Shown here: positions 24,920-61,775 of the stretch, piece by piece
Numbering within the stretch: the first letter of the stretch is position 1
How the letters are laid out: each line of letters starts with the position of its first letter
Made by a program: the position numbers and the translations under genes
Notes under the pieces: model-generated
What the model was told of the DNA's origin: nothing
Seen by the model: only the letters and a program-made list of their open reading frames with translations
Databases searched by the model: none
Source of the DNA: Candidatus Parcubacteria bacterium
GTDB lineage: Bacteria; Patescibacteriota; Patescibacteriia; Patescibacteriales; UBA12075
Reading direction: 5' to 3'
NCBI GenBank assembly: GCA_963814275.1
Contig: CAWFCE010000002.1
Span: 1,195,263-1,259,262 of the forward strand
Length of the DNA stretch: 64,000 nt

Positions 24920-25780
24920 TTATAATAAATCCCCGATTTCGTCAAATTTATTTACTGCAACTTTAGTATAAATTTGAGTGGTTTCCAGGCGAGCATGGCC
25001 CAGCAAAGACTGAATATATCTTAAGTTTACACCATTTTCTAAGAGGTGGGTAGCAAAGCTGTGGCGCAATGAATGAGCAGAAACCCGTTTTTTGATCCCG
25101 GCCCGATTTGCGGCCTCGGTGACAATTTTCTGGATGGTCCGAACCGTCAATTTCCCGGCCGAACGGAAGCTTTCGAACAAGAATTCGGCCGGATCATAGC
25201 CGCGGATGTATTGCCCGATGTTTTCCAACACTGTCCCGGACACGATCGTCACCCGGTCCTTGTTGCCCTTGCCGGCCTGGATCCGGATTATTTTTCGGTC
25301 AAAGTCGATATCATAAACCCGCAAATTCACAAGTTCGCTCACCCGCATGCCGGTGGTATAAAGCACCTGGATGATGAGTTTATGTTTTATATTTCCTGCT
25401 ACCTCTATCATCCCAATGATTTCTTTTTTCGCCAGCACAACCGGTATCCTGGAGCCCATTTTGGGCCGCTTGATCCGGATTTCCCCGGCAAAAAAATTCC
25501 TCTTTAAAATTTGCGTGTAATAGAATTTAATGGCGTTGATCGCCAGGTTCAAGGTCGCCGGCGCCCGGCCGCTCACCAGAAGCCAATCCAGATAATCTTT
25601 TATATCCTGCGCGTTTAAATCATCGCTGAATTTGTTTGCAAATCTAAGCAATTCCTTGGTATAATAAACATAAGCCTTTACCGTTTTTTGGCTATAATTC
25701 CGTATTCTCAATTCCTGCTCCAAGTTATAAAACAAATCCCTTTTTAAAGTAGTAGAACGATTTAAATCTGATGGTAGCAT
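24920..25780 (-). CDS. tyrosine recombinase, integron-integrase-like N-terminus but Xer-sized (array 1 recombinase)
   Basis: 286 aa. SAM-like core-binding domain (IRNYSQKTVKAYVYY..., RIPVVLAKKEI); catalytic set TGMRVSE, GKGNKDR, HSLRHSFATH, LLGH, QIYTKV. It is divergent from and 78 bp away from the first GTTRRRY site. Confidence 0.85.
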   Translation of the reverse strand: MLPSDLNRSTTLKRDLFYNLEQELRIRNYSQKTVKAYVYYTKELLRFANKFSDDLNAQDIKDYLDWLLVSGRAPATLNLAINAIKFYYTQILKRNFFAGEIRIKRPKMGSRIPVVLAKKEIIGMIEVAGNIKHKLIIQVLYTTGMRVSELVNLRVYDIDFDRKIIRIQAGKGNKDRVTIVSGTVLENIGQYIRGYDPAEFLFESFRSAGKLTVRTIQKIVTEAANRAGIKKRVSAHSLRHSFATHLLENGVNLRYIQSLLGHARLETTQIYTKVAVNKFDEIGDLL

Positions 25781-25850
25781 ACCTTAATTAGCTAACATAT
25801 TTATATAATAATTTTAACTAATTTTTAACAAAAAATCAACAAGTTCAGAT

Positions 25851-25864
25851 ATAACCAGTTAGAT
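25851..25864 (+). other. attI-like site of array 1 (ATAACCAGTTAGAT)
   Basis: First GTTRRRY box (GTTAGAT, 25858-25864) after the recombinase gene. The ATAACCAGTT prefix is shared with array 2 (58890-58899). It is complementary to the R'' of cassette 1. Confidence 0.5.
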
Positions 25865-25902
25865 GAAATAATTAAATTATTTTCTGCTACGCAGAAAAAT
25901 TA

Positions 25903-27126
25903 TTGGGGCAAATTTATTTTTTTTATGAATATGAAGAAAAAATTCAAAAACCAACTCCTGAAAACAATCAAGAGTCACAAGCTGATATTTTACCTGAAAC
26001 ATACACCAAAGCCCGCACTCAAGAGATTAATCAGCAAATTAATTCATATCAGGGACCAAAAAACTCTGTAGATTTGGTATCCAAAACCAAAGAGATACAA
26101 GAAAACTACAAGCAATACATGGAAGAATCAGATGCTGAAGGAAGCCAAGAAACATTACAGCTTTTTCAAAAAAAAATGCAGGCAGAGATTGATTTCTATA
26201 AAAAAGAGTTTGATAAATTTAATGATCTGCAAAGGCTAGAAACCGTCTCTAATATATTAAAACCAGAAGATTTTCAGCTCTATGAAAAAATTCTAGGCAA
26301 CAAGGAAGGAAACACAGATGATTTATTTGATTCCCGCGGTAAAGTAATTCACGCCACAAATTCAACTGCACTAGATATAATATCTGATGTTAATACAATT
26401 TCTGGAGGAACAAGGCAGCTTGGACCTTCTTTCTCTGACGGAGATCACGACATCGCAATCACTTTTAATCTTGTGTGGGAAAAATTAAAAACGCCAGGAG
26501 GCATAGATAAAACCCACAAAAAAATTGACCTTGATGAATATCCACAATTCCCCAGTAAATATAATGAATTTGTTGATTGGGCAGTGCAAAGATTAAAAAA
26601 TGAATATGGCGAGGGAGAAAAGTTTGAAATGGAAAAAAACAAACTTCTTGCAAAAGCTGAAAAACATAACGAAGATAAATCAGTCCTCCACGATACTGAA
26701 GAACAGTACACTCAAGAATTAAAAGATATGGCATATGGCACGCTTAAACCGAAGTGGATAAAAGACGGGCTTAGCGAAGAAGAAGCTGAAAATAAAGTAA
26801 AAGAATATATTGAAAATCAAAACCATTTTAAAAACAGGCTAAAAAACCGACCTCAAAATGAAGTAGCCTTCCCTGTTACACTTGCATTTATTAAAAATGA
26901 GCTACCTGAACTTGTGCCTGAAGGTGGTGAAAGAGAATTTGAACTAAGAACAGAAGAAGAAATTAAGCTTGATAATGCCTCTACCATATTTGTTCCTGAA
27001 AAATATCTAAATAGCAGACTTGTTAGAAAAATAAATCAGGTTTATCCTAATATAGACATAAGAACAGAGGAGGAGTTGGAATTTGTAAGAATGAATAAAT
27101 TATTAAATAAAATAAATTTGCCCTAA
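25903..27126 (+). CDS. hypothetical Lys/Glu-rich protein (cassette 1)
   Basis: 407-aa ORF. Start uncertain: the TTG at 25903 lies inside the cassette inverted repeat and the first in-frame ATG is at 26119. Confidence 0.5.
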   Translation: MGQIYFFYEYEEKIQKPTPENNQESQADILPETYTKARTQEINQQINSYQGPKNSVDLVSKTKEIQENYKQYMEESDAEGSQETLQLFQKKMQAEIDFYKKEFDKFNDLQRLETVSNILKPEDFQLYEKILGNKEGNTDDLFDSRGKVIHATNSTALDIISDVNTISGGTRQLGPSFSDGDHDIAITFNLVWEKLKTPGGIDKTHKKIDLDEYPQFPSKYNEFVDWAVQRLKNEYGEGEKFEMEKNKLLAKAEKHNEDKSVLHDTEEQYTQELKDMAYGTLKPKWIKDGLSEEEAENKVKEYIENQNHFKNRLKNRPQNEVAFPVTLAFIKNELPELVPEGGEREFELRTEEEIKLDNASTIFVPEKYLNSRLVRKINQVYPNIDIRTEEELEFVRMNKLLNKINLP

Positions 27127-27162
27127 TAATAACTCGCTTCGCTCGTTGAATTTAATTACATC

Positions 27163-27254
27163 ATCTAACAGCGTGTATACGGTTCGCGCTTGGCTATCGC
27201 CAAATGCTCACCCAAATTTGCTTCGCAAACTTCGTATACACACGAACGTTAGGC
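27163..27254 (+). repeat. attC-like site 1
   Basis: R'' ATCTAAC (27163-69) is the reverse complement of the upstream GTTAGAT. It is followed by stem GTGTATACG / CGTATACAC, GGTTCG, hairpin H1 TTGGC-TATC-GCCAA, CACCCAAATT, hairpin TTTGC-TTCG-CAAA and ACTTCG. R' is GTTAGGC (27248-54). Confidence 0.75.
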
Positions 27255-27318
27255 GCAACAATAAAAAGCCTCTTTAATTAATTTAATAATTTTGGCAATT
27301 TATTTGCCCAATAAAACT

Positions 27319-27702
27319 ATGATAAAACCAGACCAAAATTTAGGAAAATTTTTTTCCAAAGAAGACCAATCCATTGAAAAGGAAACTGATTTAAAACAAC
27401 TTCAAGATTTCGCCGTATTATACCATGAAAAAAACATGCCTGAAGATCAGGAGAAAAAATTTATTTCATTGGCGCAAAAATACATAGACGAGAATCATGA
27501 TGGAACATACTATAATGAAGGCAATACAGATTATATTTATGTGCAACTTCCAAACGGACTATACTTAGAAGCTGATGCACATCTCAGAAGTAACACCTTT
27601 TATTTTTCCGGAGTACTATCAAAAGAAGATGCAGAAAAAAGAATAGACATGTTAGCAAAACAACGGGAAGAAGATATAAAAGCAGCTTTAGATAAAGAAT
27701 AA
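27319..27702 (+). CDS. hypothetical protein (cassette 2)
   Basis: ATG at 27319. The track start at 27292 reads through the cassette inverted repeat. 127 aa. Confidence 0.5.
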   Translation: MIKPDQNLGKFFSKEDQSIEKETDLKQLQDFAVLYHEKNMPEDQEKKFISLAQKYIDENHDGTYYNEGNTDYIYVQLPNGLYLEADAHLRSNTFYFSGVLSKEDAEKRIDMLAKQREEDIKAALDKE

Positions 27703-27842
27703 ACAAATTGCCAAAATTAATTTAAATAGCGGAGGAGGCTTTTTATTACTCGCTCCACTCCGTTCCGCGCCGCGCTGCGCTCTCACCCTCAAATTTTATG
27801 ATTATTAACTTTAATAAGGTATAAAATTTGAGTCTTCGGGGC

Positions 27843-27941
27843 GTATAACAACGCGATATACGGTTCGGCCCTCGGCCCGGGCCTCACCCAAATTGCAATC
27901 CCCTTCGGGTCTTGCAACTTCGTATATCGGTGATGTTGTGT
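27843..27941 (+). repeat. attC-like site 2
   Basis: Degenerate R'' GTATAAC; CGATATACGG / CGTATATCGG stems; GGTTCG; H1 GGCCC-TCG-GCCCGGGCC; CACCCAAATT; H2 GCAATCCCC-TTCG-GGTCTTGC; ACTTCG. R' is GTTGTGT (27935-41). Near-identical to site 14 except for H2. Preceded by an extra hairpin module at 27749-27842. Confidence 0.7.
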
Positions 27942-28006
27942 GAAATAATTAAATTATTTTTGCTCCGCAAAAATTGTTAGGGCAAATTTATTTAATCTTT
28001 AATCTT

Positions 28007-28456
28007 ATGAAACTCTATCATGGTTCACCAAATAGTTTTGATACAATTCGTAAAAGTCAGGCGCAAGCAGGTGATGATATTAAAGTGCCAGATGATGAAT
28101 TATTAAACGCGATTTATTTAACCCCAAATTATGAATTTGCTTTGGCCATCGCTTCGATGCCGGAAGGTGCTGCCAACATCGACAATGAAACCAAAACAAT
28201 CAAGTTTGAAAATCCTGAAGCATTCGACCCAGAAAAAGAAGTTTATATTTATGAAGTTGATAGTGAATTAATCCCGAAAGAAAATTTAAAAGAAGTTGAC
28301 GAGCTTCAAATTGCGATTTTAAACACCGATGAAATAAAGCCAACAATAAAACATGTTTGCAAAGCTGGTGATGTTGAGAAATATTATGAAATAAAAAAAG
28401 AAATTTTAGAGGCTAAAAACGAAACTAAAATATCACCTGAGTTCAAGATTAAATAA
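28007..28456 (+). CDS. hypothetical protein (cassette 3)
   Basis: ATG at 28007 (MKLYHGSPNSF). The track start at 27974 lies in the inverted repeat GGGCAAATTTATTT. Confidence 0.5.
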   Translation: MKLYHGSPNSFDTIRKSQAQAGDDIKVPDDELLNAIYLTPNYEFALAIASMPEGAANIDNETKTIKFENPEAFDPEKEVYIYEVDSELIPKENLKEVDELQIAILNTDEIKPTIKHVCKAGDVEKYYEIKKEILEAKNETKISPEFKIK

Positions 28457-28500
28457 ATTTGCCCTAACAACTCGCTATCGCTCGTTAATTTAATTACATC

Positions 28501-28627
28501 ACACAACACCGCGATAAACGGCTCGGTCTTTATTCAAAGACCTCGCGCAAATTTCTGTTTTCTCTTTTGTGATTAATTTAATAATGTAGAGAAGACAGAA
28601 ACTTCGCTTCATCGGGAAACATTATGT
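28501..28627 (+). repeat. attC-like site 3
   Basis: R'' ACACAAC is the reverse complement of the upstream GTTGTGT. CCGCGATAAACGG / CGCTTCATCGGG stems with conserved bulges; GCGCAAATT; long H2 with an ATTAATTTAATAAT loop; ACTTCG. R' is ATTATGT. Confidence 0.72.
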
Positions 28628-28686
28628 GAAATATGTTTTTACTCTTGGGCTAACGCCCCAACTTTTATATAATAAATTTAATTTTT

Positions 28687-29136
28687 ATGAATAACCTAAA
28701 ATATACGAAACCACTAAACATTTTTTTGCTTTTAGTAGCTATTGTCTTATTAGCTGGTTGCTCAAATAAATATTTTGAAAAAAATTTGGAGTGCGAGAAA
28801 CAAAAAGACATGCTTCAATACAACAGCGATAATTACAGCAAGGATACCAACACAATTATCAGTAAAATTCAAAAAGTATTTTACAGTCCAAAAGCAAAAA
28901 AATGTTTGTATGTTAGTGTCTCTGCAATCGATTTTAATTCGCCTAATAATATGACTGCTCTAACACAGAAAGACTATTCAGACGGAGCAAGATGGAAGCT
29001 CCGGACAATTTCAGGCGAATTAGTTGAAGATTTGCTAATTAACACTGAAGATGAAAAAATGGCTGTTTTTGGAGCAGAGCCACAACATACAGATTCATAT
29101 GAAGAATTTGAAAACCTTGTTAAAAAATGGGAATAA
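28687..29136 (+). CDS. putative lipoprotein (cassette 4)
   Basis: 149 aa. Signal peptide with lipobox LLAGC. Confidence 0.55.
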   Translation: MNNLKYTKPLNIFLLLVAIVLLAGCSNKYFEKNLECEKQKDMLQYNSDNYSKDTNTIISKIQKVFYSPKAKKCLYVSVSAIDFNSPNNMTALTQKDYSDGARWKLRTISGELVEDLLINTEDEKMAVFGAEPQHTDSYEEFENLVKKWE

Positions 29137-29200
29137 AAAATTAAATTTATTATATAAAAGCAATTCCGCATAAGCGGAATTAAGAGCAAAAACATACATC

Positions 29201-29657
29201 ACATAACAATGAATATGCGGTTCACAAATTAAAAATTATTCCTTATAATTATCAAAATATATGAAAAAAATATTAGTATTCGCGGTCGTTGTCTTGTTAA
29301 TAATTTTAGTGTTTAGCTGGTGGAATAAATCCCCAGAAGCTACATGGCAGGGTTCCTATTACAAACACGGACAACAAGAAAACGAAGTGTATGGACCAAT
29401 TTTTACTAATTTTGATGGCTGTAAAGCGTGGGCATTAGGAAAAATAGTTTATAACGACGACACAGCTAACTGTAGTAAAAATTGTCATGACGCTTTGGGA
29501 GACGGCACCCCTGTGTGTGAGGAAGTTGTTAGAAATTGGGCACCGCTTCCGGGCAGTTACACTTTTGATAATTATAAGGAATAATTTTTAATTTGTTCAC
29601 CCAAATTTTTGTTCCGCTTCGCTACACAAAAACTTCGCATATTCATAAACGTTAGGC
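29201..29657 (+). repeat. attC-like site 4, split by a nested cassette (29225-29595)
   Basis: R'' ACATAAC matches the upstream TTATGT. L'' AATGAATATGCG (29208-19) pairs with L' CGCATATTCAT (29636-46). The insert is flanked by GTTCAC (29220-25 and 29595-600) and sits immediately 5' of CCAAATT. R' is GTTAGGC (29651-57). Confidence 0.72.
29261..29584 (+). CDS. small secreted/TM-anchored Cys-containing protein (nested cassette)
   Basis: 107 aa with an N-terminal hydrophobic helix. The ORF is bracketed by a perfect 32-bp inverted repeat (29225-29256 / 29564-29595), whose right arm encodes the last 6 codons plus the stop. Confidence 0.55.
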   Translation: MKKILVFAVVVLLIILVFSWWNKSPEATWQGSYYKHGQQENEVYGPIFTNFDGCKAWALGKIVYNDDTANCSKNCHDALGDGTPVCEEVVRNWAPLPGSYTFDNYKE

Positions 29658-29689
29658 GAAATAAATTTTTCGCTACTAATTTTAAACAT

Positions 29690-30283
29690 ATGAAAAAATT
29701 CTTTTTGGGCTTCGCAAGCTCGTTATTAATCACAATTCCCCTGATCGCTTTTTCTGCTGATTCACTGTCTACAAAACTAAAAGGAAAAATTTTGTTAGCA
29801 GTAGAAGATAAGGGTAAAACTTATTATGTCAATGAAGATGGAAACAGATACAGAATTACTGTTTCTACTGCACAAAAAATATTTGAAAAACTTGCATTGG
29901 GCATTACAAATGAAAATTTAAGTCAAATTCCAGAAAGTAACGTAGGTATCGACCCAGAAGAAAACAGCACCCAGGAAAATTGTGCTGCGCAAGAATCAGA
30001 ATTAAATGATTGGAAGAATTTGAATACAAAAAATGAAAATACCCTCAGTTCTTGCCTTAACACCCTCACTAGCTTGAAGGATTCTTATGCAGACCTAATT
30101 AACAAATACGAAGATTGCATAGGTGAGTGCAATTATGGCCCTACAGTTGATGCACTCATCGCCCAAAATAACGAGCTTGCTAAACAAAATGATGAACTTT
30201 TAGCTATATCTATTTACTGGGAAAATAGTGCTAACACATGGAAGGCTTACGCATATGGTTGCACTGGCTATACTAGTCAATAA
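29690..30283 (+). CDS. secreted protein with KGKILLxVExxGxxYYV motif (cassette 6)
   Basis: ATG at 29690 (MKKFFLGFASSLLITIPLIAFS signal peptide). The track start at 29609 reads through attC-like site 4. Confidence 0.55.
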   Translation: MKKFFLGFASSLLITIPLIAFSADSLSTKLKGKILLAVEDKGKTYYVNEDGNRYRITVSTAQKIFEKLALGITNENLSQIPESNVGIDPEENSTQENCAAQESELNDWKNLNTKNENTLSSCLNTLTSLKDSYADLINKYEDCIGECNYGPTVDALIAQNNELAKQNDELLAISIYWENSANTWKAYAYGCTGYTSQ

Positions 30284-30336
30284 AATTAGTAGCGAAAAAT
30301 TTACTCAAGGGTTCGCTCCTTGAATCCGCTCACCTC

Positions 30337-31028
30337 GCCTAACGCGGCGTATCTGGCTCCGCTGGCCGTAAAATAATTAATTTTTTTATGACGATATTAA
30401 AGCCCAGAAATAAACCTGGCTCAAATAGTTTGCAAAACAGATTAGGTGGAGCAGTTTATAATTTTCTGGACAAAGCAAAAAATAATGATAAATTTTTGTT
30501 AGACTACGAAAGGATTAAAGGTAAATGTACCTCTGGCAATTGGCAAATTAATGATTATTCTCCAATACTTTTGCCATTGGTTAAATACTATGAAAATAGC
30601 TTGTGGTTTATTTGTGATAAATTAGGCATATTTAACCAGATTAATGACGGCAAAAAACCCCATAGCTTAAGGGCATTTTTCGACACAAAAGAAACAGAAA
30701 TAAATATTTGGCTTTCTTCAAAAATTAATGATAATCTTAAATATAAAAAATTGTCCAGAAAATTATTTTCAACAATCGACGATTATGTTCAGAGAAATGA
30801 AGTTGTTCATTGCAACGAAATCATATCCTTTCCCGATTTGAGCAATTACGATAGTTTGCTTACTAAATTAAAAGAATTAGTTGAACTTTTATTTAATCAC
30901 AATTTATTACAAAAAAATTAATTATTTTACTAGCTCCGCCCAAATTTCGTTTCCGCTTTTTGTTGGCGCATCCGCGCAATTATAACAAAAAGCTACAACG
31001 AAACTTCAGATACGCCGAAATGTTATCG
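30337..31028 (+). repeat. attC-like site 6, split by a nested cassette (30363-30932)
   Basis: R'' GCCTAAC is the reverse complement of the upstream GTTAGGC. L'' GGCGTATCTG (30346-55) pairs with L' CAGATACGCC (31007-16). The direct repeat GCTCCGC occurs at 30356-62 and 30933-39, the latter abutting CCAAATTT. R' is GTTATCG (31022-28). Confidence 0.72.
30388..30921 (+). CDS. hypothetical protein (nested cassette)
   Basis: 177-aa ORF flanked by the 20-bp inverted repeat GTAAAATAATTAATTTTTTT (30368-87 / 30911-30). Confidence 0.5.
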   Translation: MTILKPRNKPGSNSLQNRLGGAVYNFLDKAKNNDKFLLDYERIKGKCTSGNWQINDYSPILLPLVKYYENSLWFICDKLGIFNQINDGKKPHSLRAFFDTKETEINIWLSSKINDNLKYKKLSRKLFSTIDDYVQRNEVVHCNEIISFPDLSNYDSLLTKLKELVELLFNHNLLQKN

Positions 31029-31120
31029 GAAATAAATTTTTTATCTTGGTGGTAATTTCAAGGTTTGCGCGTTTTGCCAAGACGAAAATTTGATTTTTTA
31101 TTTTTTAAAGAGGGGTAATT

Positions 31121-31609
31121 ATGAAATTAACCAAAGAAACTACCTCGGAAAAACTTCTTGATTTTGGCAAACAGATTTTCGAGATTTTACAAAGACTAGA
31201 TACCTCACCAATCGTTTACGGTAGTTTGGCATATTTTTATCATACGAAAGATACTAGTTTCCCGATTAGAGACATTGATTTGCTTTTGCCAGAATCAAAT
31301 TTTTCAAAAATATCTGAAATGCTCGACAAAGAAAAAAATGTCACATACAATGTGATGCCATATCATAGTATAGAGGTATTCAGAGACGGTCTCGAAATCG
31401 ACATCGATTCTATCGAACATTTTTTAGATCCGAGATCTAGAGAATTTCATAAATCAACGATAAACGACCTCGATTTGAATATTTTAAATAAAGAGTCCTT
31501 GGCAAGCATTTACAAAGAAGCCTTGGATAACATGCCGCAAGAGAAAAAACTCGATGAAAAAAGAAATAAGTATCAAAAGAAGTTAGACAATCTCCAAAAA
31601 TTACTTTAA
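31121..31609 (+). CDS. hypothetical protein, possible minimal nucleotidyltransferase fold (cassette 8)
   Basis: 162 aa with SD AAGAGGGG. YGSLAYFYH...IRDIDLLLPE resembles the GS...DxD motif of Pol-beta-type nucleotidyltransferases; this is a weak call. Confidence 0.4.
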   Translation: MKLTKETTSEKLLDFGKQIFEILQRLDTSPIVYGSLAYFYHTKDTSFPIRDIDLLLPESNFSKISEMLDKEKNVTYNVMPYHSIEVFRDGLEIDIDSIEHFLDPRSREFHKSTINDLDLNILNKESLASIYKEALDNMPQEKKLDEKRNKYQKKLDNLQKLL

Positions 31610-31734
31610 TAAGGAGTTTTTATTTTTGGCCATTCACCCCTACCCCTCTGGCCAAAAATAAAAACAAAAAATCAAATTTTCTTTTAACGTAGAAAAGCTA
31701 TCGGCCAGTAGCATGGAGATAAAAAATTTACATC

Positions 31735-31921
31735 CGATAACACGGCACATGCGGTTCAGAAATTTCTCGTTTTTTAGACTTTTCAATTAAGGTATGAGAA
31801 ATTTCCTCTCCCAAATTGCGCTGACTATATGGAAAGTTTAGTGGTATAATCAAGTTAAGCGATAATCAATAATTTTATCAATAAATAACGGCGCAACTTC
31901 GCATGTGCCGATACGTTAAAT
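31735..31921 (+). repeat. attC-like site 8
   Basis: R'' CGATAAC is the reverse complement of the upstream GTTATCG. GGCACATGCGG / CGCATGTGCC stems; GGTTCA; H1 GAAATTTCTC...GAGAAATTTC; CTCTCCCAAATT; long H2; AACTTCG. R' is GTTAAAT (31915-21). Confidence 0.72.
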
Positions 31922-32016
31922 GAAATTGGCTAATTGTTTAGTGTACACCATAGATGACACTATAGTGTACACTAATGTGGTAAATCAAAGTTAATCGCGA
32001 GCCAACTTCACTTAAC
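31916..32016 (+). other. conserved ORF-less cassette, copy 1 of 3
   Basis: GAAATTGGCT...TTAATCGCGAGCCAACTTC-ACTTAAC with internal palindrome TAGTGTACAC-N16-GTGTACACTA. Homologous copies are at 59441-59542 and 61297-61396. Confidence 0.6.
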
Positions 32017-32534
32017 AGGTGATATGCGGTTACAATTAAGGAAATATAGAATATAATTTTTACTAAAAAAATCCCCACGAACTGAATCGCAGGGACACGT
32101 TGGTTTTAGTCCATCTTTGGAAATTACACAATAAGGATTTTTGCTCTGCCTTCGACATTGTGAAAACCGATAAACACAGTATTGCGTCCGGTTTCCTTTA
32201 AACGTTTCAATGCTAACACGGCAGCTTCGGTACCAACGGTTTTTTCAAAATCTGATATGAGCTTTATGGCATCATCAATCGGATAATCATCAACTTCCAC
32301 TCCAACCATTGGTCCGTGCTTTTCTGGGTCATATTCTGATATCGGCGCTGTCTTTAATTCCATATTCCCTCCTTTTTATGAATTGTTGCTAGAAACTTAG
32401 CACGTGAATGCCAAAAACGCAAGTAAAAATTATTTTCTATATTTCTTTAATCTCCACCCAAATTCCTGCCCCTCTTTTTAGGATAAATTAATAATGAGTC
32501 GGGGCAGAAACTTCGCATATCAAAAATGTTAGGC
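32010..32534 (+). repeat. attC-like site 9, split by a nested reverse-oriented cassette (32034-32451)
   Basis: R'' ACTTAAC. L'' GGTGATATGCG (32018-28) pairs with L' CGCATATCA (32513-21). ACCCAAATT and the H2 stem CCTGCCCC...GGGGCAG follow. R' is GTTAGGC (32528-34). This is a paralog of the array 2 site at 59536-60215. Confidence 0.7.
32124..32363 (-). CDS. hypothetical 79-aa protein (reverse-oriented nested cassette)
   Basis: Strong SD (AGGAGGG) 7 nt upstream of the ATG on the minus strand. The cassette is bounded by a roughly 29-bp inverted repeat (32034-63 / 32423-51). Confidence 0.55.
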   Translation of the reverse strand: MELKTAPISEYDPEKHGPMVGVEVDDYPIDDAIKLISDFEKTVGTEAAVLALKRLKETGRNTVFIGFHNVEGRAKILIV

Positions 32535-32559
32535 GAAATTTATTTTCAATTTAAAATTT

Positions 32560-33396
32560 ATGAGTTCGGATACTATAACCAATTACTACGATTACACCCT
32601 GCCATTTTATAGATTTTTTTATCACGGCAAGAGCAATGCCGTTCATTATGGCTTTTGGAACAATGGAGTTAAAAATCACCAGGAAGCTTTATTGAACGTA
32701 AATAAATTTTTGGCTGACACGGTTAAGATAAAATCAGATGATAGTGTTTTAGACGCGGGTTGCGGAATTGGAGGTAGCGCGATTTGGCTGGCACAGAATT
32801 ACAATGTTCGAGTTGATGGCATAACCATAAGTGAAAAACAGTTAGAGGAAGCCAAAAATTTATCTACCAAATATAATGTTGACCATATCGTAAATTTTTA
32901 TCAAAGAAATTTTTTAAATACCAAATTTAACGATAGTTCCTATAACATAGTTTTGGCGATTGAAAGCGTGTGCCATGCCGAGAACAAAAAGGACTTTATC
33001 AAAGAAGCGTACCGGGTACTTAAAAACGGCGGACGATTGATTGTTGATGATGGATTTCTTTTGCGAAGTCCGAAAAATAAACACGAGCAAAAAGATTTAA
33101 ATGCATTTTTAGAGGGCATGGCACTCTCCAATCTTGCTTTTGAAACAGACTTTAAAAAATCTCTTGAAGATGTTGGATTTAAAAATATAAAAATTTACGA
33201 CAAGGTCAACGAAACGATTCCTTCTTCAAAAAAAATCTATAAAATGTCAATTTTTAGTTATCCTTTATCTATAATTCTCGAAAAACTAAAACTTACACCA
33301 CCATTATTAACCAAAAATAATTTAGCGGGAATAACACAATACAGGATAATTAAAAATGGGATAATGGGACACCGAGTATTTTACGCTGAAAAATAA
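32560..33396 (+). CDS. class I SAM-dependent methyltransferase (cassette 11)
   Basis: 278 aa. Motif I VLDAGCGIGGSAIWLA; post-I and motif II/III spacing (LKNGGRLIVDD). Confidence 0.8.
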   Translation: MSSDTITNYYDYTLPFYRFFYHGKSNAVHYGFWNNGVKNHQEALLNVNKFLADTVKIKSDDSVLDAGCGIGGSAIWLAQNYNVRVDGITISEKQLEEAKNLSTKYNVDHIVNFYQRNFLNTKFNDSSYNIVLAIESVCHAENKKDFIKEAYRVLKNGGRLIVDDGFLLRSPKNKHEQKDLNAFLEGMALSNLAFETDFKKSLEDVGFKNIKIYDKVNETIPSSKKIYKMSIFSYPLSIILEKLKLTPPLLTKNNLAGITQYRIIKNGIMGHRVFYAEK

Positions 33397-33419
33397 ATTT
33401 TAAATTGAAAATAAACATC

Positions 33420-33573
33420 GCCTAACACCGCGATAAGCGGCTCCAGAAAAGTTCCTTAATTAAATATAATAATGAGTAAACTTTTCTTCCGACCCAAATT
33501 TCTATTTTTCTTTTCTTATTAATTTTAATATTGAAAAAAAATAGAAACTTCGCTTCATCGGGAAACGTTGTGT
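33420..33573 (+). repeat. attC-like site 11
   Basis: R'' GCCTAAC is the reverse complement of the upstream GTTAGGC. CCGCGATAAGCGG / CGCTTCATCGGG stems; GGCTCC; H1 33445-87; CCCAAATT 33493-500; H2 33501-45; AACTTCG 33546-52. R' is GTTGTGT (33567-73). Confidence 0.75.
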
Positions 33574-33639
33574 GAAATAATGTCCTTAAACAAAATATTT
33601 TAGGTGGTGCTAATTCAAAAGAAAAAGGAGGGAGGTATT

Positions 33640-33852
33640 ATGGTAATCATCAATAAACTTGGCAGATTATTAAAAGACCATTCAGAAACTTTTATTCTTT
33701 TTTTAGCGGGTATAATATTAACCCTATACGGGATTTTGAAAGCATTGCCTTTTATTGATTGGGCGCAGAAAGGTCAATTTTCGAGTGAGTTTACTATTTT
33801 ACTTGGAATACTTCTGCTATTCTTTGGACTTCGTTCATTATTAAACAAATAA
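33640..33852 (+). CDS. small two-TM membrane protein (cassette 12)
   Basis: ATG at 33640 preceded by AAGGAGGGAGG. 70 aa. Confidence 0.55.
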   Translation: MVIINKLGRLLKDHSETFILFLAGIILTLYGILKALPFIDWAQKGQFSSEFTILLGILLLFFGLRSLLNK

Positions 33853-33955
33853 ATTGATTATTCTCGCGGGGAACACTTTCCCCGCACCACCTAAAATATT
33901 TTGTTAGCTTCTATTCAGAAGCTGTTTGCTCAATCGCAAACAAGGACATTACATC

Positions 33956-34073
33956 ACACAACAACGCGACAAGCGATTCGGTCTTTATTCAAAGACCTCA
34001 CTCAAATTTTTGAAATGATTATTAACTTTAATAATGAATTTCAAAAACTTCGCTTCGTCGGTATACGTTATAT
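33956..34073 (+). repeat. attC-like site 12
   Basis: R'' ACACAAC is the reverse complement of the upstream GTTGTGT. H1 GGTCTTTATTCAAAGACC; CACTCAAATT; H2 TTTGAAATG...ATTTCAAA; ACTTCG. R' is GTTATAT (34067-73). Confidence 0.72.
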
Positions 34074-34090
34074 GAAATTAAAAATTCCCT

Positions 34091-34603
34091 ATGAGCATTA
34101 AACAAGATTGGAAAAGTCCCAAAGTTGATATAAAAGATAGTCCGATTGGAGGAAAAGGCATTTTTGCTAATTCCAATATTAAACGAGGTGAAAAAATCAT
34201 CGTCTGGGGAGGAAATTATACTGATGCTGTTGGTGCGCAAAAAGCAAAAGAAAAAGGTATGCTAGTATTTCAATGGGACGATGACCTTTATAGCTACGAA
34301 GATAGAGGGAAAGACGATGGGTACTACATAAACCATTCCTGTAACCCTAATCTATGGATGACAGATGCATACACTTTAACAGCTATGAGAGATATTAATG
34401 CTGGTGAAGAAATTACAATAGATTATGCGTTGTTCGAGGAAGATGATTATATTTCAAAATGGAAATGCAACTGCGGTTCATCGTTATGCCGCGGCCGGGT
34501 TACAGGAGAGGATTGGAAAAGCATAGTGCTACAAAAACGCTATAAAGGACATTTTTCACCTCTCTTAAATAAACGGATCCAGAAATTACAAGATAATAAA
34601 TAA
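34091..34603 (+). CDS. SET domain protein (cassette 13)
   Basis: 170 aa. YINHSCNPN and EEITIDY SET motifs plus the post-SET CNCGSSLCRG. Confidence 0.8.
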   Translation: MSIKQDWKSPKVDIKDSPIGGKGIFANSNIKRGEKIIVWGGNYTDAVGAQKAKEKGMLVFQWDDDLYSYEDRGKDDGYYINHSCNPNLWMTDAYTLTAMRDINAGEEITIDYALFEEDDYISKWKCNCGSSLCRGRVTGEDWKSIVLQKRYKGHFSPLLNKRIQKLQDNK

Positions 34604-34627
34604 TTCACGGCGGGAATTTTTAACATC

Positions 34628-34772
34628 ATATAACACCGCGATAAGCGGTTCCAGAAAATTTCCTTTATTAATGATAATAATGAATAAAATTTTCTTCCAC
34701 CCAAATTTTGCAAATGAATATTAATTTTAATAAGGTATTTGCAAAACTTCGCTTCATCGGGAAACGTTAGGC
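34628..34772 (+). repeat. attC-like site 13
   Basis: R'' ATATAAC is the reverse complement of the upstream GTTATAT. Same family as sites 3, 11 and 17. R' is GTTAGGC (34766-72). Confidence 0.75.
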
Positions 34773-34800
34773 GAAATAATTTATCAATAATTAAATTTCT

Positions 34801-35150
34801 ATGGGAATAGACAACAAGCCTTTTACGGCAGAGCAACTCCAGGAACAGATTAATTTTTTTGGAATTGATTGCACTGTAAAAAAACACCTGGAGAAAAATA
34901 TATATTTTTTAGTTGTGACTCTATGGAAGACGCGGAATCAATAGTAGTAAGTTTTTGGGGAAAAAGAGATCAATCAGTTGTTGACGGCCTTAACCGAGGC
35001 ATGCTAAAACCTAGTCATGAAATTACTACAGGTGCCAGAACGGAAATCACTGAAATCGGAGGCAAAGCAACATTAATTATTAGTGAAAACGGTGCTCCAC
35101 TTTCGGAAAAAACAATTTCAGCATTAGAAGATGGAGGATTTACAATTTAA
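34801..35150 (+). pseudogene. hypothetical cassette gene with a frame break at an A7 run (cassette 14)
   Basis: The ATG at 34801 opens MGIDNKPFTAEQLQEQINFFGIDCTVKK. After the A7 run (about 34877-34883) the reading continues in another frame as TPGEKYIFFSCDSMEDAES... to 35150; one extra A would fuse the two frames. Alternatively an intact ORF could start at ATG 34923. Confidence 0.4.
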
Positions 35151-35232
35151 TTATTGATAAATTACTCAAGGGGGCGCTGCGCTTCAGGTCTGCCTTTTAC
35201 AATTAATAATATTGAGAGCAGACCTGACCCTC

Positions 35233-35331
35233 GCCTAACAACGCGATATGCGGTTCGGCCCTCGGCTCGGGCCTCACCCAAATTTTCTTTCACTTCGTTC
35301 AAGAAAACTTCGTATATCGGTGATGTTGTAC
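35233..35331 (+). repeat. attC-like site 14
   Basis: R'' GCCTAAC is the reverse complement of the upstream GTTAGGC. Near-identical to site 2 apart from H2. R' is GTTGTAC (35325-31). Preceded by a hairpin module at 35165-35232. Confidence 0.75.
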
Positions 35332-35359
35332 GAAATAAAAATTTAATTATTTTGCTACC

Positions 35360-36079: not shown

Positions 36080-36107
36080 GAACGCAAAATAATTAAATTT
36101 TTACATC

Positions 36108-36186
36108 GTACAACACTGAATATCTGGTTCCGTTATCGCTCCACCCAAATTGCTGACGCAACTTCAGATATTCAGAAACGTTATCG
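36108..36186 (+). repeat. attC-like site 15 (shortest, 79 bp)
   Basis: R'' GTACAAC is the reverse complement of the upstream GTTGTAC. CTGAATATCTGG / CAGATATTCAG stems; GGTTCC; CCACCCAAATT; hairpin GCTGACGCAA; CTTCAG. R' is GTTATCG (36180-86). Confidence 0.75.
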
Positions 36187-36253
36187 GAAATATTGCTCAT
36201 TAAAATATTTTTTTGTAAGAGGGCTTGAAATTAACTATCAAAGGAGGATTGTA

Positions 36254-36544: not shown

Positions 36545-36651
36545 TCTACGCCCTTTGTCTTCGCGGGAATAAACAATATTCCCGCCCTCTTTTCAAAAAA
36601 ATATTTTTGCTGGCTTATCAGCCAACGGCTATCACTAATGAGCAATATATC

Positions 36652-36759
36652 CGATAACAGCACGCTATCCGGTTCGCGCTTGCCCTGTCGGGCAAATGCT
36701 CACCCAAATCCCGACTCCGATTCACTACATCGGGACTTCGGATATCGGCATATGTTATG
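36652..36759 (+). repeat. attC-like site 16
   Basis: R'' CGATAAC is the reverse complement of the upstream GTTATCG. Family shared with sites 18, 23 and 24 (GCACG.TATCCGG ... CCGATATC). H1 stem TTGCCC/GGGCAA. R' is GTTATGT (36753-59). Confidence 0.75.
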
Positions 36760-39726: not shown

Positions 39727-39763
39727 GAAATGACTCCATATTCATTACGTCACATCATCTAAC
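39721..39763 (+). other. minimal ORF-less cassette (43 bp)
   Basis: TTAGAT-GAAATGAC...GTCACATC-ATCTAAC: just a short inverted repeat between an R' and the next R''. Confidence 0.5.
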
Positions 39764-40325
39764 ACTGTGTAACTGGCTCCGCTAAATAAATAATTTCATT
39801 TCAATATTATGGCTTACTATAACAAAATCGGCTTATTGATTTTAAATGAAAATGCTACTAAATTTCTTGTTTGTGAGCCTGGCAACCTGTATAAAAATAA
39901 AAACGTTACTCAGTATTTAATGCCCGGCGGGAAATACGAAGAAGATTCTGTCGAGGATTGTTTAAAATCCGAAACAAAAGAAGAGCTTGGTTGTGAATTG
40001 GACATAAGCAGTGTTAAATATATTAATGAATACCTCGACGTAGCCGCGGCAAGCCCCAATCGCGATGTCTCAATTCGTTTATATGAAGGAAAACTCATTG
40101 GCAAACCCGTTCCCTCAACTGAAATAGGCGCTCTTCATTGGATTGGAAAAAGAGACGTTAATAATGAAAAAGTTTCTGCCATAATAAAAAATAAAATAAT
40201 CCCCGATTTAGTGGAGAAAAAAATATTGAAATAAAATTATTTATTTAGCTCCGCCCAAATTTTTGAAATAATTAATTAACTTGATAAGGAATTTCAAAAA
40301 CTTCAGTTACACATAAACGTTAGAT
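39757..40325 (+). repeat. attC-like site 21, split by a nested cassette (39783-40247)
   Basis: R'' ATCTAAC. L'' TGTGTAACTG (39766-75) pairs with L' CAGTTACACA (40305-14). The direct repeat GCTCCGC occurs at 39776-82 and 40248-54, the latter abutting CCAAATTT. R' is GTTAGAT (40319-25). Confidence 0.72.
39809..40234 (+). CDS. NUDIX-like hydrolase (nested cassette)
   Basis: 141 aa. Nudix-box-like PGGKYEEDSVEDCLKSETKEELG. Flanked by the perfect 15-bp inverted repeat CTAAATAAATAATTT (39782-96 / 40234-48). Confidence 0.6.
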   Translation: MAYYNKIGLLILNENATKFLVCEPGNLYKNKNVTQYLMPGGKYEEDSVEDCLKSETKEELGCELDISSVKYINEYLDVAAASPNRDVSIRLYEGKLIGKPVPSTEIGALHWIGKRDVNNEKVSAIIKNKIIPDLVEKKILK

Positions 40326-59446: not shown

Positions 59447-59542
59447 GAAATTGGCTTCACGATTAGCACATTCCATAGAATGTGCTATAGAATACTCTAT
59501 AGGTGGTTAATCCAAATTAATCGCAAGCCAACTTCACTTAAC
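59441..59542 (+). other. conserved ORF-less cassette, copy 2 of 3
   Basis: GAAATTGGCT...TTAATCGCAAGCCAACTTC-ACTTAAC with internal hairpin GCACATTC-CATA-GAATGTGC. Confidence 0.6.
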
Positions 59543-60215
59543 AGGTGATATGCGACTGCGAAAAGTAATTTTTATTTTTTAATTTTTATGTGGCGAACAA
59601 TTTCATCTAAAGAGATATTCAATCATCCACGCATTGTATTAGTCGAGGATGAGGTTGAATTACCGAATGGCAAAGTAACCAAATACCTTAGATACAAGGA
59701 CAGTGGTGCTGGCGTCGTTACCATAGTCTGCAGGCGTGATGACGGCAAGATATTATTACAGAAAGAATATTCCTACCCGATCAACCAAAAACTTTTCCAA
59801 TTTCCTGGCGGCGGAACACATCCGGGTGAAAAACTGGAAGACGGAGCTAACCGCGAACTAATGGAAGAAGCGAACTTAAGAGCTAACAAACTTGAGTTAA
59901 TTGGAAAATATCTGAAAAATAATCGTCGTTCCAAGGTAATGTTTCATGTTTACCTTGCTACAGATTTAGTAAGTGACTCGTTGCCCAGCGACGAAACCGA
60001 AGAAATCGAAAGTTTTTGGTTTAGTGAAGACGAAATTGACGACATGATAAGAAATGGGGACATTATAAATAACCACGCCTTGTCTGCCTGGATACTTTAT
60101 AAGATAAAAATTAAAAAATAAAAATCACTTTTCTCCGTCCAAATTCCTGTCCCTCTTTTTAGATAATTTTAATAATGAGTCGGGGCAGGAACTTCGCATA
60201 TCACAGATGTTATGT
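59536..60215 (+). repeat. attC-like site, array 2 no. 2, split by a nested cassette (59560-60133)
   Basis: R'' ACTTAAC. L'' GGTGATATGCG pairs with L' CGCATATCAC. TCCAAATT and the H2 stem CCTGTCCC...GGGGCAGG follow. R' is GTTATGT (60209-15). Paralog of the array 1 site at 32010-32534. Confidence 0.7.
59588..60121 (+). CDS. NUDIX hydrolase, ADP-ribose pyrophosphatase-like (nested cassette)
   Basis: 177 aa. Nudix box GGGTHPGEKLEDGANRELMEEANL. Flanked by a 28-bp inverted repeat (59560-87 / 60106-33). Confidence 0.8.
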   Translation: MWRTISSKEIFNHPRIVLVEDEVELPNGKVTKYLRYKDSGAGVVTIVCRRDDGKILLQKEYSYPINQKLFQFPGGGTHPGEKLEDGANRELMEEANLRANKLELIGKYLKNNRRSKVMFHVYLATDLVSDSLPSDETEEIESFWFSEDEIDDMIRNGDIINNHALSAWILYKIKIKK

Positions 60216-61302: not shown

Positions 61303-61396
61303 AAAATTGGCTTCACATATAGTGTACACCATAGCGCCATCTATAGAGTACACTAACGTAATAAATAAAATTAATCGCGAGCCAACTTCACTTAAC
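61297..61396 (+). other. conserved ORF-less cassette, copy 3 of 3
   Basis: AAAATTGGCT...TTAATCGCGAGCCAACTTC-ACTTAAC with internal TAGTGTACACC...GAGTACACTA. Confidence 0.6.
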
Positions 61397-61775
61397 AATG
61401 TATATACGGCTCCGCCGGACGTGAAATAAATATTTTTAGAAAGCTAACTAAAAGGAGGTGCACATGGATGAAATAAAAAAAGATGTTGGCAAAGACGATC
61501 CTTACAGAAACCTCAAAGAATGGGGTGAACGAGCGCGCAAAAAAATGAAGCCCGAAGACTGGGAAAATGCTTTAAACGCAGCCGAAAGCATTATCGAGAA
61601 TATTGCGCGCATCTGTTCTTAGTAACAATTAACATTCCATTCTGGGGGAAATTCGCTTTCCCCCGCTTTCTAAAAATATTTATTTCACTGGCTCTGCCCA
61701 AATTTTTATTTTTCTTTTCTCTATAATGATAATAATGAAGAAAAATAAAAACTTCGTGTATACAAAATGTTAATC
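61390..61775 (+). repeat. attC-like site, array 2 no. 6, split by a nested cassette (61421-61688)
   Basis: R'' ACTTAAC. L'' TGTATATACGG pairs with L' CGTGTATACA. GCTCCGC (61409-15) and GCTCTGC (61691-97) flank the insert, the latter abutting CCAAATTT. R' is GTTAATC (61769-75). Confidence 0.68.
61464..61622 (+). CDS. 52-aa hypothetical protein (nested cassette; absent from the ORF track because it is under 60 aa)
   Basis: Strong SD AAAGGAGGTG 5 nt upstream of the ATG. Translation MDEIKKDVGKDDPYRNLKEWGERARKKMKPEDWENALNAAESIIENIARICS. Followed by hairpin GGGGGAAA-TTCG-CTTTCCCCC. The cassette is bounded by a perfect 24-bp inverted repeat (61421-44 / 61665-88). Confidence 0.55.
   Translation: MDEIKKDVGKDDPYRNLKEWGERARKKMKPEDWENALNAAESIIENIARICS

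What the first reader, a model, noticed from the sequence alone, without database searches (positions are those of the whole stretch)
29201..29657. Cassette nested inside the attC-like site of another cassette (perfect 32-bp IR, GTTCAC duplication)
The two halves of one site are separated by 371 bp containing ORF 29261-29584. The left half is R'' ACATAAC plus L'' AATGAATATGCGG; the right half is CCAAATTT, H2, ACTTCG, CGCATATTCAT and R' GTTAGGC.

The insert is bounded by a perfect 32-bp inverted repeat (CAAATTAAAAATTATTCCTTATAATTATCAAA, 29225-56 / 29564-95) and by the direct repeat GTTCAC (29220-25 / 29595-600). It lies exactly between the GGYTCS box and CCCAAATT. Removing 29226-29600 restores a normal short site.

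This suggests a second insertion point inside the sites. A circular form of the insert would carry IR-GTTCAC-IR, which resembles a lox/dif-type core (two inverted arms around a 6-7 bp spacer).
Basis: seen in the sequence. Interest (0 to 1): 0.85.

Follow-up and report, generated by a model that had tools for sequence, protein, structure and literature searches.

The report
Gene carried inside its recombination-site hairpin
In an integron-like gene-cassette array of an uncultured Patescibacteria (CPR) bacterium, a small gene sits inside one hairpin arm of its own recombination site, held in by a perfect 32-bp inverted repeat; six cassettes in this window are built this way, so it is a recurring design rather than a one-off insertion.

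Summary
There is a perfect 32-bp inverted repeat (IR; 34 bp if extended), GTTCAC occurs on both sides, and the two half-sites are 11/11 complementary across 416 nt.

The "nested cassette" reading is only partly right. In groundwater metagenomes the same unit (97% aa) occurs in at least 3 upstream and 6 downstream contexts. Its ends lie at G|TT of the outer R' boxes. So half-sites, IR and gene travel together as one cassette, and the gene lies in the site's variable arm (H1). A 64%-aa relative keeps this layout with compensatory stem changes. No uninterrupted site was found.

The layout recurs. Six of 26 cassette genes in the window sit in H1, each with a different IR. All 26 genes are bracketed by 17-34-nt IRs.

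The GTTCAC repeat largely reflects two similar boxes that flank H1. It is degraded or absent in other cases, so a lox/dif-like core is not supported in general. However, the same site frame does carry different IR+gene inserts, and the same IR carries unrelated genes. A second loading point therefore remains possible.

The recombinase is XerA/IntI-like but lacks the IntI-specific domain. The sites fold better as the bottom strand (18/18), as integron attC sites do.

I found no description of this system in the searched literature.

The parts
24920..25780 (-). Tyrosine recombinase of array A (286 aa), XerA/IntI-like, divergent from the cassette array
   Evidence: Pfam Phage_integrase 1.2e-42. 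NCBIfam NF040815 'site-specific tyrosine recombinase/integron integrase' scores 249 against a cut-off of 220. TIGR02249 integron integrase scores 209, below its cut-off of 265. It has 31 aa where VchIntIA has 73.
28687..29136 (+). Gene in the ordinary position of the same cassette (149 aa). It has its own bracket IR at 28662-28686 / 29136-29160
   Evidence: ORF. Bracket is 25/25 nt. In metagenome copies of the cassette this position holds only a 35-nt leader.
29201..29207 (+). R'' box ACATAAC
   Evidence: Matches the RYYYAAC form and is complementary to R'-type GTTRRRY boxes.
29209..29219 (+). L'' ATGAATATGCG
   Evidence: 11/11 complementary to 29636-29646 (I18).
29219..29225 (+). Box 1 (GGTTCAC), containing the left GTTCAC
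   Evidence: GGYTC follows L'' in nearly all sites.
29221..29249 (+). Promoter-like TTCACA-17-TATAAT inside the left arm, 11 nt before the ATG
   Evidence: 11/12 match and the best hit in 28600-30400. This is a consensus match only.
29225..29256 (+). Left arm of the 32-bp perfect IR (base of the H1 stem)
29261..29584 (+). Gene in the H1 loop: 107 aa, N-terminal hydrophobic segment, several Cys, no Pfam or NCBIfam family
   Evidence: 28 homologous protein clusters at 46-97% identity.
29564..29595 (+). Right arm of the IR. It covers the last 6 codons (FDNYKE), the stop codon and 11 further nt
   Evidence: The same C-terminus occurs in non-cassette homologues.
29595..29607 (+). Box 2 GTTCACCCAAATT, containing the right GTTCAC
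29606..29632 (+). H2 hairpin TTTTTGT-TCCGCTTCGCTAC-ACAAAAA
29632..29657 (+). ACTTCG box, L' CGCATATTCAT, spacer AAAC, R' GTTAGGC (crossover at G|TT)
   Evidence: Flanks diverge right after ...AAACGTTA in 7 contexts.
30338..31027 (+). Case E, same layout: gene 30388-30921 in H1, IR 30368-30387 / 30911-30930 (20/20)
   Evidence: Relatives L117-L120.
32005..32534 (+). Case C: gene 32124-32363 on the minus strand inside H1, IR 32035-32064 / 32422-32451
39755..40320 (+). Case F: NUDIX gene 39809-40234 in H1, IR 39781-39808 / 40222-40249, flanks GGCTCCGC | GCTCCGCCCAAATT
59535..60215 (+). Case B (array B): NUDIX gene 59588-60121 in H1, IR 59560-59589 / 60104-60133
61385..61775 (+). Case D (array B): small gene 61464-61622 in H1, IR 61421-61444 / 61665-61688

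Best explanation
What it is: 29201-29657 is a single recombination site of an integron-like cassette system in a Patescibacteria chromosome.

Site layout:
- An outer stem is formed by R''/R' and L''/L'.
- The stem opens into a junction with two hairpin arms, H1 and H2, framed by the boxes GGYTC, CACCCAAATT and ACTTCG.
- In most sites H1 is a hairpin of 17-57 nt. Here H1 is a 32-34-bp stem (the inverted repeat) whose loop is a whole gene.

How it works:
- When the DNA is single-stranded, the long stem closes the gene off as a loop. This brings the two half-sites, 370 nt apart, back together so that the site can still fold and be recombined. The bottom strand is probably the folded one, as in integrons.
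- Left half, IR, gene, IR and right half move as one cassette by strand exchange at G|TT of the R' boxes. The neighbouring XerA/IntI-like tyrosine recombinase is the likely catalyst.
- The left arm is a derived inverted copy of the gene's own 3' end. It is kept complementary by compensatory change or templated correction of the quasi-palindrome. It also carries a promoter-like element for the gene.
- The IR is the local form of a bracket that encloses every gene in these arrays. What is special here is its position, in H1 rather than outside the R box.

Shown versus inferred:
- Shown: the anatomy, recurrence of the layout, mobility as one unit, age of the layout, and strand bias of folding.
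- Inferred: that the recombinase acts on the folded strand, that the stem is needed for function, and how the gene first got into H1.
For: Anatomy and significance:
-. The predicted fold reproduces the L stem, IR stem and H2 with z about -6.

One mobile unit:
- A 97%-identical gene with the same half-sites and IR lies in at least 3 upstream and 6 downstream contexts. Homology ends at (G)TTATATG on the left and at ...AAACG|TTA on the right.

Old and inherited:
- The 64%-aa relative (L092-L099) has the same layout.
- Its outer stem has two both-sided compensatory changes, and its inner stem tracks its own codons.
- D and L001 show a compensatory A:T to G:C change in the same IR.

Right arm is native coding sequence:
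- Operon homologues (61%, 68%, 49% aa) lack any IR. The 61% one, whose 3' end was read, ends in FDNYKD.

Recurrence:
- Six of 26 array genes in the window are in H1.
- The distance from L'' to CCAAAT is 289-587 nt in these six, against about 17-57 nt in 18 other sites.
- There are further cases in L001, L082, L107-L110 and L117-L120.

Universal bracket:
- 26/26 genes score 17-34. Mismatched pairs have a median of 9 and a 95th percentile of 12. L001 gives 7/7.

Single-strand, bottom-strand signal:
- The bottom strand is more stable in 18/18 sites, by 2.0 kcal/mol on average. Integron attC sites show 2.12 (PMC5027507).
- GCTNCGC occurs 20 times on the + strand of the arrays and 2 times on the - strand. 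On the bottom strand this reads GCGNAGC, a stable DNA mini-hairpin motif (my own knowledge).

Recombinase and activity:
-.
- A 681-bp cassette is 97.7% identical between the window's two arrays.
Against: - No experiment or read-level evidence shows excision or folding. Recombination of a site with a 300-nt loop is assumed, not shown.
- For integron attC sites extruded from double-stranded DNA, recombination frequency falls as the variable terminal structure gets longer (PMC5027507).
- The recombinase lacks the IntI-specific domain that integron integrases need (PMC9668308 citing Messier and Roy 2001). The analogy with integrons may therefore fail in detail.
- The explanation does not say how the gene entered H1.
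- It does not explain why the sequences flanking H1 resemble each other as direct repeats and co-vary: GTTCAC/GTTCAC in A, GCTCCGC/GCTCCGC in E and F, GCTTCGC/GCTTCGC in L120.
- The IRs could serve an RNA-level role instead or as well. A test on mismatch types was inconclusive: 14 versus 7, p = 0.19.
Confidence: 0.65

Rival explanations
1. IR-gene-IR is an independently mobile circle. It enters a short site by tyrosine-recombinase exchange at a 6-7-bp core (GTTCAC) between GGYTC and CCCAAATT. In the circle, IR-core-IR forms a lox/dif-like site.
For: - Direct repeats flank the IR in A (GTTCAC), F (GCTCCGC, flush with the IR), E, D, L107 and L110, and they co-vary between lineages.
- The same site frame carries different IR+gene inserts in either orientation (B versus C).
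- The same IR and boxes carry three unrelated genes (D, L001, L107).
- The recombinase scores above the XerA cut-off. XerA enzymes act on sites with short inverted arms around a 6-bp spacer (my own knowledge).
Against: - In about 18 contexts the unit was never seen apart from its half-sites.
- No uninterrupted site was found and no circle junction was found in viral contigs.
- The repeat is degraded in the 64% relative, absent in B, C and L108, and separated from the IR by 1-5 nt in D, E and L110.
- The IR arms differ between cassettes, so a single recombinase would have no common arm to bind.
- The right arm is native coding sequence.
- No site with box 1 abutting box 2 exists among about 45 sites.
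Confidence: 0.17
2. The inverted repeats act mainly in RNA. Pairing of the 5' leader and start codon with the 3' end of each cassette transcript would create RNase III-type processing sites or control translation and stability. Their position in the site would then be incidental.
For: - The IRs are flush with every gene and often include the start and stop codons, for example 38826-38852 / 39503-39530 and L108.
- They are present at ordinary cassette positions, where site folding does not need them.
Against: - The strand bias of folding and of the GCGNAGC motif points to the non-coding DNA strand.
- Transition mismatches in the stems lean to G.T on the bottom strand, not the mRNA strand, although not significantly.
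- For genes in H1 a DNA stem is structurally needed to rejoin the half-sites.
- Genes on the opposite strand (C, L110) have the same brackets.
Confidence: 0.12
3. A MITE- or IS-like transposon with terminal inverted repeats and a 6-bp target-site duplication, which happened to land in the site.
For: Perfect 32-bp terminal IRs and a flanking GTTCAC repeat.
Against: - The IR occurs only as this one pair in 64 kb.
- There is no transposase.
- Every gene in the arrays has a different IR.
- The insert is always at the same structural position in a site.
- The right arm is the gene's own 3' end.
- The unit moves with its site.
Confidence: 0.03
4. An invertible gene switch: the recombinase flips the segment between the inverted repeats.
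For: - Some H1 genes are on the opposite strand (C, L110).
- Tyrosine recombinases can invert DNA lying between inverted sites (my own knowledge).
Against: - All copies of the target unit in 10 + 8 loci have the same orientation.
- The IR sequences are cassette-specific and carry no common recombinase core.
Confidence: 0.03

Closest known systems
Integron attC sites with long, branched variable terminal structures (e.g. chromosomal integron repeats)
   Same: - Imperfect palindrome with R''/R' = RYYYAAC/GTTRRRY and L''/L'.
- Unidirectional cassette array next to a tyrosine recombinase.
- Crossover at G|TT.
- The bottom strand folds better by about 2 kcal/mol (PMC5027507).
- The variable tip tolerates changes in length.
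   Different: - Known attC sites are 57-141 bp (PMC5027507). This site is 457 bp and has a whole gene in one arm.
- The sites carry extra conserved boxes: GGYTC, CACCCAAATT and ACTTCG.
- Every gene is bracketed by an IR.
- The recombinase lacks the IntI-specific domain.
Elements that insert inside attC sites (IS1111-attC insertion sequences, group IIC-attC introns) - from my own knowledge, not tested here
   Same: A discrete element interrupts an attC site at a defined position.
   Different: - Those elements encode their own transposase or reverse transcriptase and recur with the same ends.
- Here the insert is an ordinary cargo gene with cassette-specific IRs, and it moves with the site.
XerA/dif, loxP and FRT-type simple sites
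   Same: - The recombinase scores as XerA-like.
- A hypothetical circle would read IR-GTTCAC-IR, that is, inverted arms around a 6-bp spacer.
   Different: - No such junction was observed.
- The arms are cassette-specific and one of them is coding sequence.
- The array sites are folded, attC-like palindromes rather than 28-34-bp duplex cores.
Synthetic attC sites embedded in coding sequence (PMC7439510)
   Same: Shows that site structure and coding sequence can overlap.
   Different: The relation is reversed: there the site sits inside a gene, here a gene sits inside the site.

Membership tests
Integron (sensu stricto) | Integrase is a tyrosine recombinase with the IntI-specific additional domain around patch III | tested here: not met
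   - The alignment to VchIntIA (2A3V) breaks between query 182-214 and chain 171-245. The query has 31 aa where IntI has 73.
- TIGR02249 scores 208.8 against a cut-off of 265, in two stretches.
- The definition is taken from PMC9668308.
Integron (sensu stricto) | Array of cassettes, each ending in an imperfect palindrome with RYYYAAC ... GTTRRRY | tested here: met
   About 24 sites in two arrays, all in one orientation.
Integron (sensu stricto) | Cassette boundaries / crossover at G|TT of R' | tested here: met
   - The same cassette sits in several contexts, with homology ending at G|TT on both sides.
- In addition, the same site occurs with unrelated upstream genes, and there the break is at R''. 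This is not typical of integrons.
Integron (sensu stricto) | Recombinogenic bottom strand folds more stably than the top strand | tested here: met
   18/18 sites, mean -2.0 kcal/mol. GCTNCGC strand bias is 20:2.
Integron (sensu stricto) | attC length 57-141 bp with a short variable tip | tested here: not met
   The target site spans 457 bp. The six sites with a gene in H1 have 289-587 nt between L'' and CCAAAT.
Integron (sensu stricto) | Integrase-catalysed recombination of the folded single strand | not testable with these tools
   Needs recombination assays.
XerA / dif chromosome-dimer resolution | Recombinase passes the XerA family cut-off | tested here: met
   NF040815 scores 249.2 against a cut-off of 220. 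The best solved relative is P. abyssi XerA 4A8E, with VchIntIA nearly equal.
XerA / dif chromosome-dimer resolution | Acts on a single duplex core of about 28 bp: two inverted arms around a 6-bp spacer | tested here: not met
   - The gene is next to arrays of about 100-bp folded sites.
- IR-GTTCAC-IR exists only as a hypothetical circle. It was searched for only in viral contigs, and was not found.
MITE / insertion sequence | Multiple copies share the same terminal inverted repeats | tested here: not met
   Only the one pair in the window, even allowing 3 mismatches. The IRs differ for each of 26 genes.
MITE / insertion sequence | Target-site duplication of fixed length, flush with the ends | tested here: inconclusive
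   - Flush in A (6 bp) and F (7 bp).
- Offset in D, E and L110.
- Absent in B, C and L108.
- Degraded in the 64% relative.
Invertible DNA switch | Both orientations of the segment occur in a population | tested here: not met
   18 loci carrying the target family all have one orientation.

The most novel reading that the evidence does not exclude
The cassettes of this Patescibacteria system are modular. A site frame (leader, R/L stem, boxes, H2) has two loading positions for hairpin-bracketed genes: one outside the R box and one in H1. Genes taken from ordinary operons are loaded or exchanged there by a recombinase- or replication-dependent process. That process leaves inverted repeats at the gene's ends and similar boxes on either side.

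If so, these arrays would show how cassettes are assembled, which is still an open question for integrons. They would also define an integron-like system that works without the IntI-specific domain.
Probability: 0.2. Interest if true: 0.9.

Novelty: new variant of a known kind. Interest (0 to 1): 0.7.

Why it matters
- Integron attC sites are known as short hairpins that follow a gene. Here a natural, recurrent and mobile form has the gene inside the hairpin. This shows that a folded recombination site can carry several hundred nucleotides in one arm, provided a long stem closes it.
- The arrays belong to Patescibacteria (CPR) and use a XerA/IntI-like recombinase without the domain thought necessary for integron activity. 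The searched literature does not describe them.
- Two features could bear on how cassettes are made and brought together for excision: the inverted-repeat bracket around every gene, and the exchange of genes within conserved stems.
- Practically, attC and integron finders that cap site length would miss or mis-split such cassettes.

Tried and rejected
- Looking up the window's own proteins by exact sequence (the nested gene and the recombinase) gave nothing on record.
None had this site type, so the scan was wasted.
- The metagenome scan for the uninterrupted site gave 0 hits. It matches exactly only, so diverged empty sites could have been missed.
- Viral-contig scans for the circle junction and for the left junction gave 0 hits.
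- Rfam at gathering thresholds and tRNA scans of the whole window found nothing.
- A test of whether stem mismatches are G.T on the top or the bottom strand gave 7 versus 14, which is not significant.
- I considered whether L'' pairs alternatively with box 2 plus H2. A weak match appeared, but it does not hold for other sites.
- I considered whether box 2 mimics an R' arm. This is suggestive for A (GTTCACCCAAATT versus GTTAGGCGAAATT), but the consensus is CTC, not GTT.
- Literature searches for CPR/Patescibacteria cassette arrays found no description.

Full report
**Setting**

The window has a backbone of about 47% GC and two stretches of about 33% GC, at roughly 25.8-42.1 kb and 58.8-64 kb. 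Both are filled with short genes on the + strand. Each starts next to a divergently oriented tyrosine recombinase gene: 24920-25780 (286 aa) and 57970-58782 (270 aa). The two recombinases are 38% identical.

The first recombinase passes the NCBIfam model 'site-specific tyrosine recombinase/integron integrase' (XerA type), scoring 249 against a cut-off of 220. It fails the integron-integrase model, scoring 209 against 265 in two pieces. Its closest solved relatives are P. abyssi XerA and Vibrio IntI4, with nearly equal scores. In the alignment to IntI4 it has 31 residues where IntI4 has 73, so the IntI-specific domain is missing. That domain is the accepted hallmark of integron integrases (PMC9668308).

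Homologues at 57-74% identity are abundant in Patescibacteria: Falkowbacteria, Parcubacteria and others.

**The sites**

Between the genes lie about 24 sites of a common form:

- R'' (..yAAC), L'', GGYTC, hairpin H1, (C)TCACCCAAATT, hairpin H2, (A)ACTTCG, L', R' (GTTrrry, followed by a conserved GAAAT).

They are attC-like palindromes with a branched tip. Three results point to a folded single strand, and to the same strand that integrons use:

- The bottom strand folds more stably than the top strand in 18 of 18 sites, by 2.0 kcal/mol on average. The published figure for integron attC sites is 2.12 kcal/mol (PMC5027507).
- The heptamer GCTNCGC occurs 20 times on the + strand of the arrays and twice on the - strand. 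About one occurrence is expected from base composition (my estimate; counts).
- On the bottom strand this heptamer reads GCGNAGC, which I know as an unusually stable DNA mini-hairpin.

**Check of the observation**

- The 32-mer is present exactly twice, in inverted orientation, with none in shuffles. It extends to 34 perfect bp.
- GTTCAC lies on both sides of it.
- L'' and L' are 11/11 complementary across 416 nt, and this is the only such match within 4 kb upstream.
- The insert lies between GGTTC and CACCCAAATT.
- Folding 29190-29665 as DNA gives the L stem, the long stem and H2 on either strand, with z about -6.

One sub-claim fails. No 'normal short site' with the two boxes abutting exists among about 45 sites examined. 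The shortest H1 region is about 17 nt, at 36127-36145.

**What the unit is**

The gene is real. It has 28 homologous protein clusters at 46-97% identity.

The 97% homologue occurs on dozens of metagenome contigs. In ten loci read here (L082-L091) the DNA is the same from (G)TTATATGAAATAGC..ACATAAC-AATGAATATGCGGTTCAC-IR-gene-IR-GTTCACCCAAATT-H2-ACTTCG-CATATTCATAAACG to the next TTA. Outside these points the flanks differ:

- three different left contexts: next to a 356-aa recombinase of the same family, next to relA/spoT, and after another site;
- six different right contexts.

The two half-sites, the IR and the gene are therefore one mobile cassette with ordinary ends at G|TT. Its only gene lies inside its own site. 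In the window the 35-nt leader of that cassette is replaced by another bracketed gene, 28687-29136.

A 64%-aa relative (L092-L099) has the same layout with a co-diverged site:

- Its outer stem differs from the window's by two both-sided compensatory changes.
- Its inner stem matches its own C-terminal codons.
- The flanking hexamers read GTTCAA and GCTCAC.

Homologues at 61%, 68% and 49% lie in ordinary, tightly packed operons without any IR or site. The 61% one, whose 3' end was read, ends in FDNYKD. So the right arm is the native end of the gene and the left arm is the derived copy. In the 97% copies the left arm has an internal mismatch loop, whereas in the window it is perfect. This fits a one-step templated correction of a quasi-palindrome, which is an inference.

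A scan of the metagenome collection for the same site with an H1 of 0-30 nt found nothing.

**Recurrence**

The layout is common. The window has five more cases:

| Case | Site span | Gene |
|---|---|---|
| E | 30338-31027 | 30388-30921 |
| C | 32005-32534 | 32124-32363, opposite strand |
| F | 39755-40320 | 39809-40234 |
| B | 59535-60215 | 59588-60121 |
| D | 61385-61775 | 61464-61622 |

- Each case has a different 20-30-nt IR.
- Three of them (B, C, D) follow a conserved, gene-less leader of about 100 bp. Searching that leader in metagenomes gave seven loci. All that are long enough have a gene in H1.
- More generally, all 26 array genes in the window are bracketed by an IR of 17-34 nt that ends at or inside the start and stop codons. 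Mismatched upstream/downstream pairs give a median score of 9 and a 95th percentile of 12.
- The syntenic relative L001 shows brackets on 7 of 7 genes.

The 32-bp repeat is thus the strongest instance of a general bracket. The special point is where the bracketed gene sits.

**Is there a second entry point?**

Some evidence favours it:

- B and C share the leader, L'', box 2, H2 and L' but carry different IRs and genes, in opposite orientations.
- D, L001 and L107 share the same boxes and the same 24-bp IR, with a compensatory A:T/G:C difference, yet enclose three unrelated genes.
- The sequences on either side of H1 resemble each other as direct repeats and co-vary: GTTCAC/GTTCAC in A, GCTCCGC/GCTCCGC in E and F, GCTTCGC/GCTTCGC in L120.

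Other evidence argues against a simple core or target duplication:

- The repeats are offset from the IR by 1-5 nt in D, E and L110.
- They are absent in B, C and L108 and degraded in the old relative of A.
- The IR arms have no common sequence.
- Neither the A nor the E gene family was found at the ordinary cassette position or in an unrelated site.

For the E family, the 66%-aa relative has a nearly identical site and IR but an unrelated upstream gene, and the break lies at R''. This suggests that exchange can also occur on the R'' side, unlike in integrons.

I therefore keep the second-entry idea as an open possibility for the origin of these cassettes. I do not use it to explain how this unit moves now.

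**Other features**

The left arm contains the best promoter-like match of the region, TTCACA-17-TATAAT at 29221-29249, 11 nt before the ATG. Its -35 hexamer overlaps the left GTTCAC. This is only a consensus match.

**Comparison and novelty**

- The system works like an integron in five respects: the array, the R/L palindromes, the G|TT ends, the bottom-strand bias, and shuffling.
- Shuffling is shown by the varying neighbours of the target cassette and by a 681-bp cassette that is 97.7% identical between the two arrays.
- It fails the defining integrase test.
- Its sites differ in having extra boxes and universal gene brackets, and in about one cassette in five having a gene inside the site.
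- Published attC sites are 57-141 bp (PMC5027507).
- Four literature searches found no description of cassette arrays in Patescibacteria.
- I rate it a new variant of a known kind and of high interest to integron specialists. The specific lox/dif-core mechanism is unproven.

Noticed in passing
window 25900-42050 and 58900-62100 (all array genes): Every one of 26 cassette genes is bracketed by a cassette-specific IR of 17-34 nt, often overlapping the start and stop codons. Mismatched-pair controls give a median of 9 and a 95th percentile of 12. This is not a known property of integron cassettes.
   Followed up: partly
window 25780-42100 and 58780-64000: GCTNCGC occurs 20 times on the + strand and 2 times on the - strand of the arrays, in H2 loops, in small hairpins beside genes, and in the boxes. 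On the bottom strand it reads GCGNAGC, a stable DNA mini-hairpin motif.
   Followed up: partly
window 31915-32013, 59436-59541, 61291-61396; L105-L111: A conserved gene-less leader of about 100 bp (GTTAAATGAAATTGGCT ... AGCCAACTTCACTTAAC) with an internal palindrome such as TAGCACATTCCATAGAATGTGCTA. It precedes sites that carry their gene in H1. Its function is unknown (operator, promoter or small RNA?).
   Followed up: partly
window 36753-37433 and 60208-60889: A cassette (130-aa NUDIX gene plus a site with a long H2) is 97.7% identical between the two arrays of the same genome, although their recombinases are only 38% identical.
   Followed up: partly
window 30284-30400 versus L117:1090-1212; window 29137-29207 versus L082: The same site (with its H1 gene) is joined to unrelated upstream genes, and the break lies at or next to R''. 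This suggests exchange on the R'' side as well as at R'.
   Followed up: partly
L100-L104 and L121: Non-cassette homologues of two different H1 genes (families A and E) both lie in tightly packed operons that contain a DUF6804 gene. These may be a common source of captured genes.
   Followed up: no
window 33450-33500, 34655-34700, 37245-37300, 60700-60750, 61165-61215 and many H2 loops: AT-rich hairpins of about 43 nt in H1 or H2 whose loops share TTAATnnTAATAATGAGT / ..TAAGGAG-like sequences. They could be scars of lost gene loops or expression signals.
   Followed up: no
L093/L094 1480-1929 versus L092/L095: An IS200-type Y1 transposase gene is present or absent next to the old relative of the target cassette.
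   Followed up: no
window 41700-42047: The last cassette of array A looks decayed: a truncated gene fragment and only the right half of a site.
   Followed up: no
L082:1716-2786: The target cassette also sits first in an array next to a 356-aa recombinase of the same family. That recombinase is 46% identical, has a 75-aa N-terminal extension, and is oriented in the same direction as the cassettes.
   Followed up: partly
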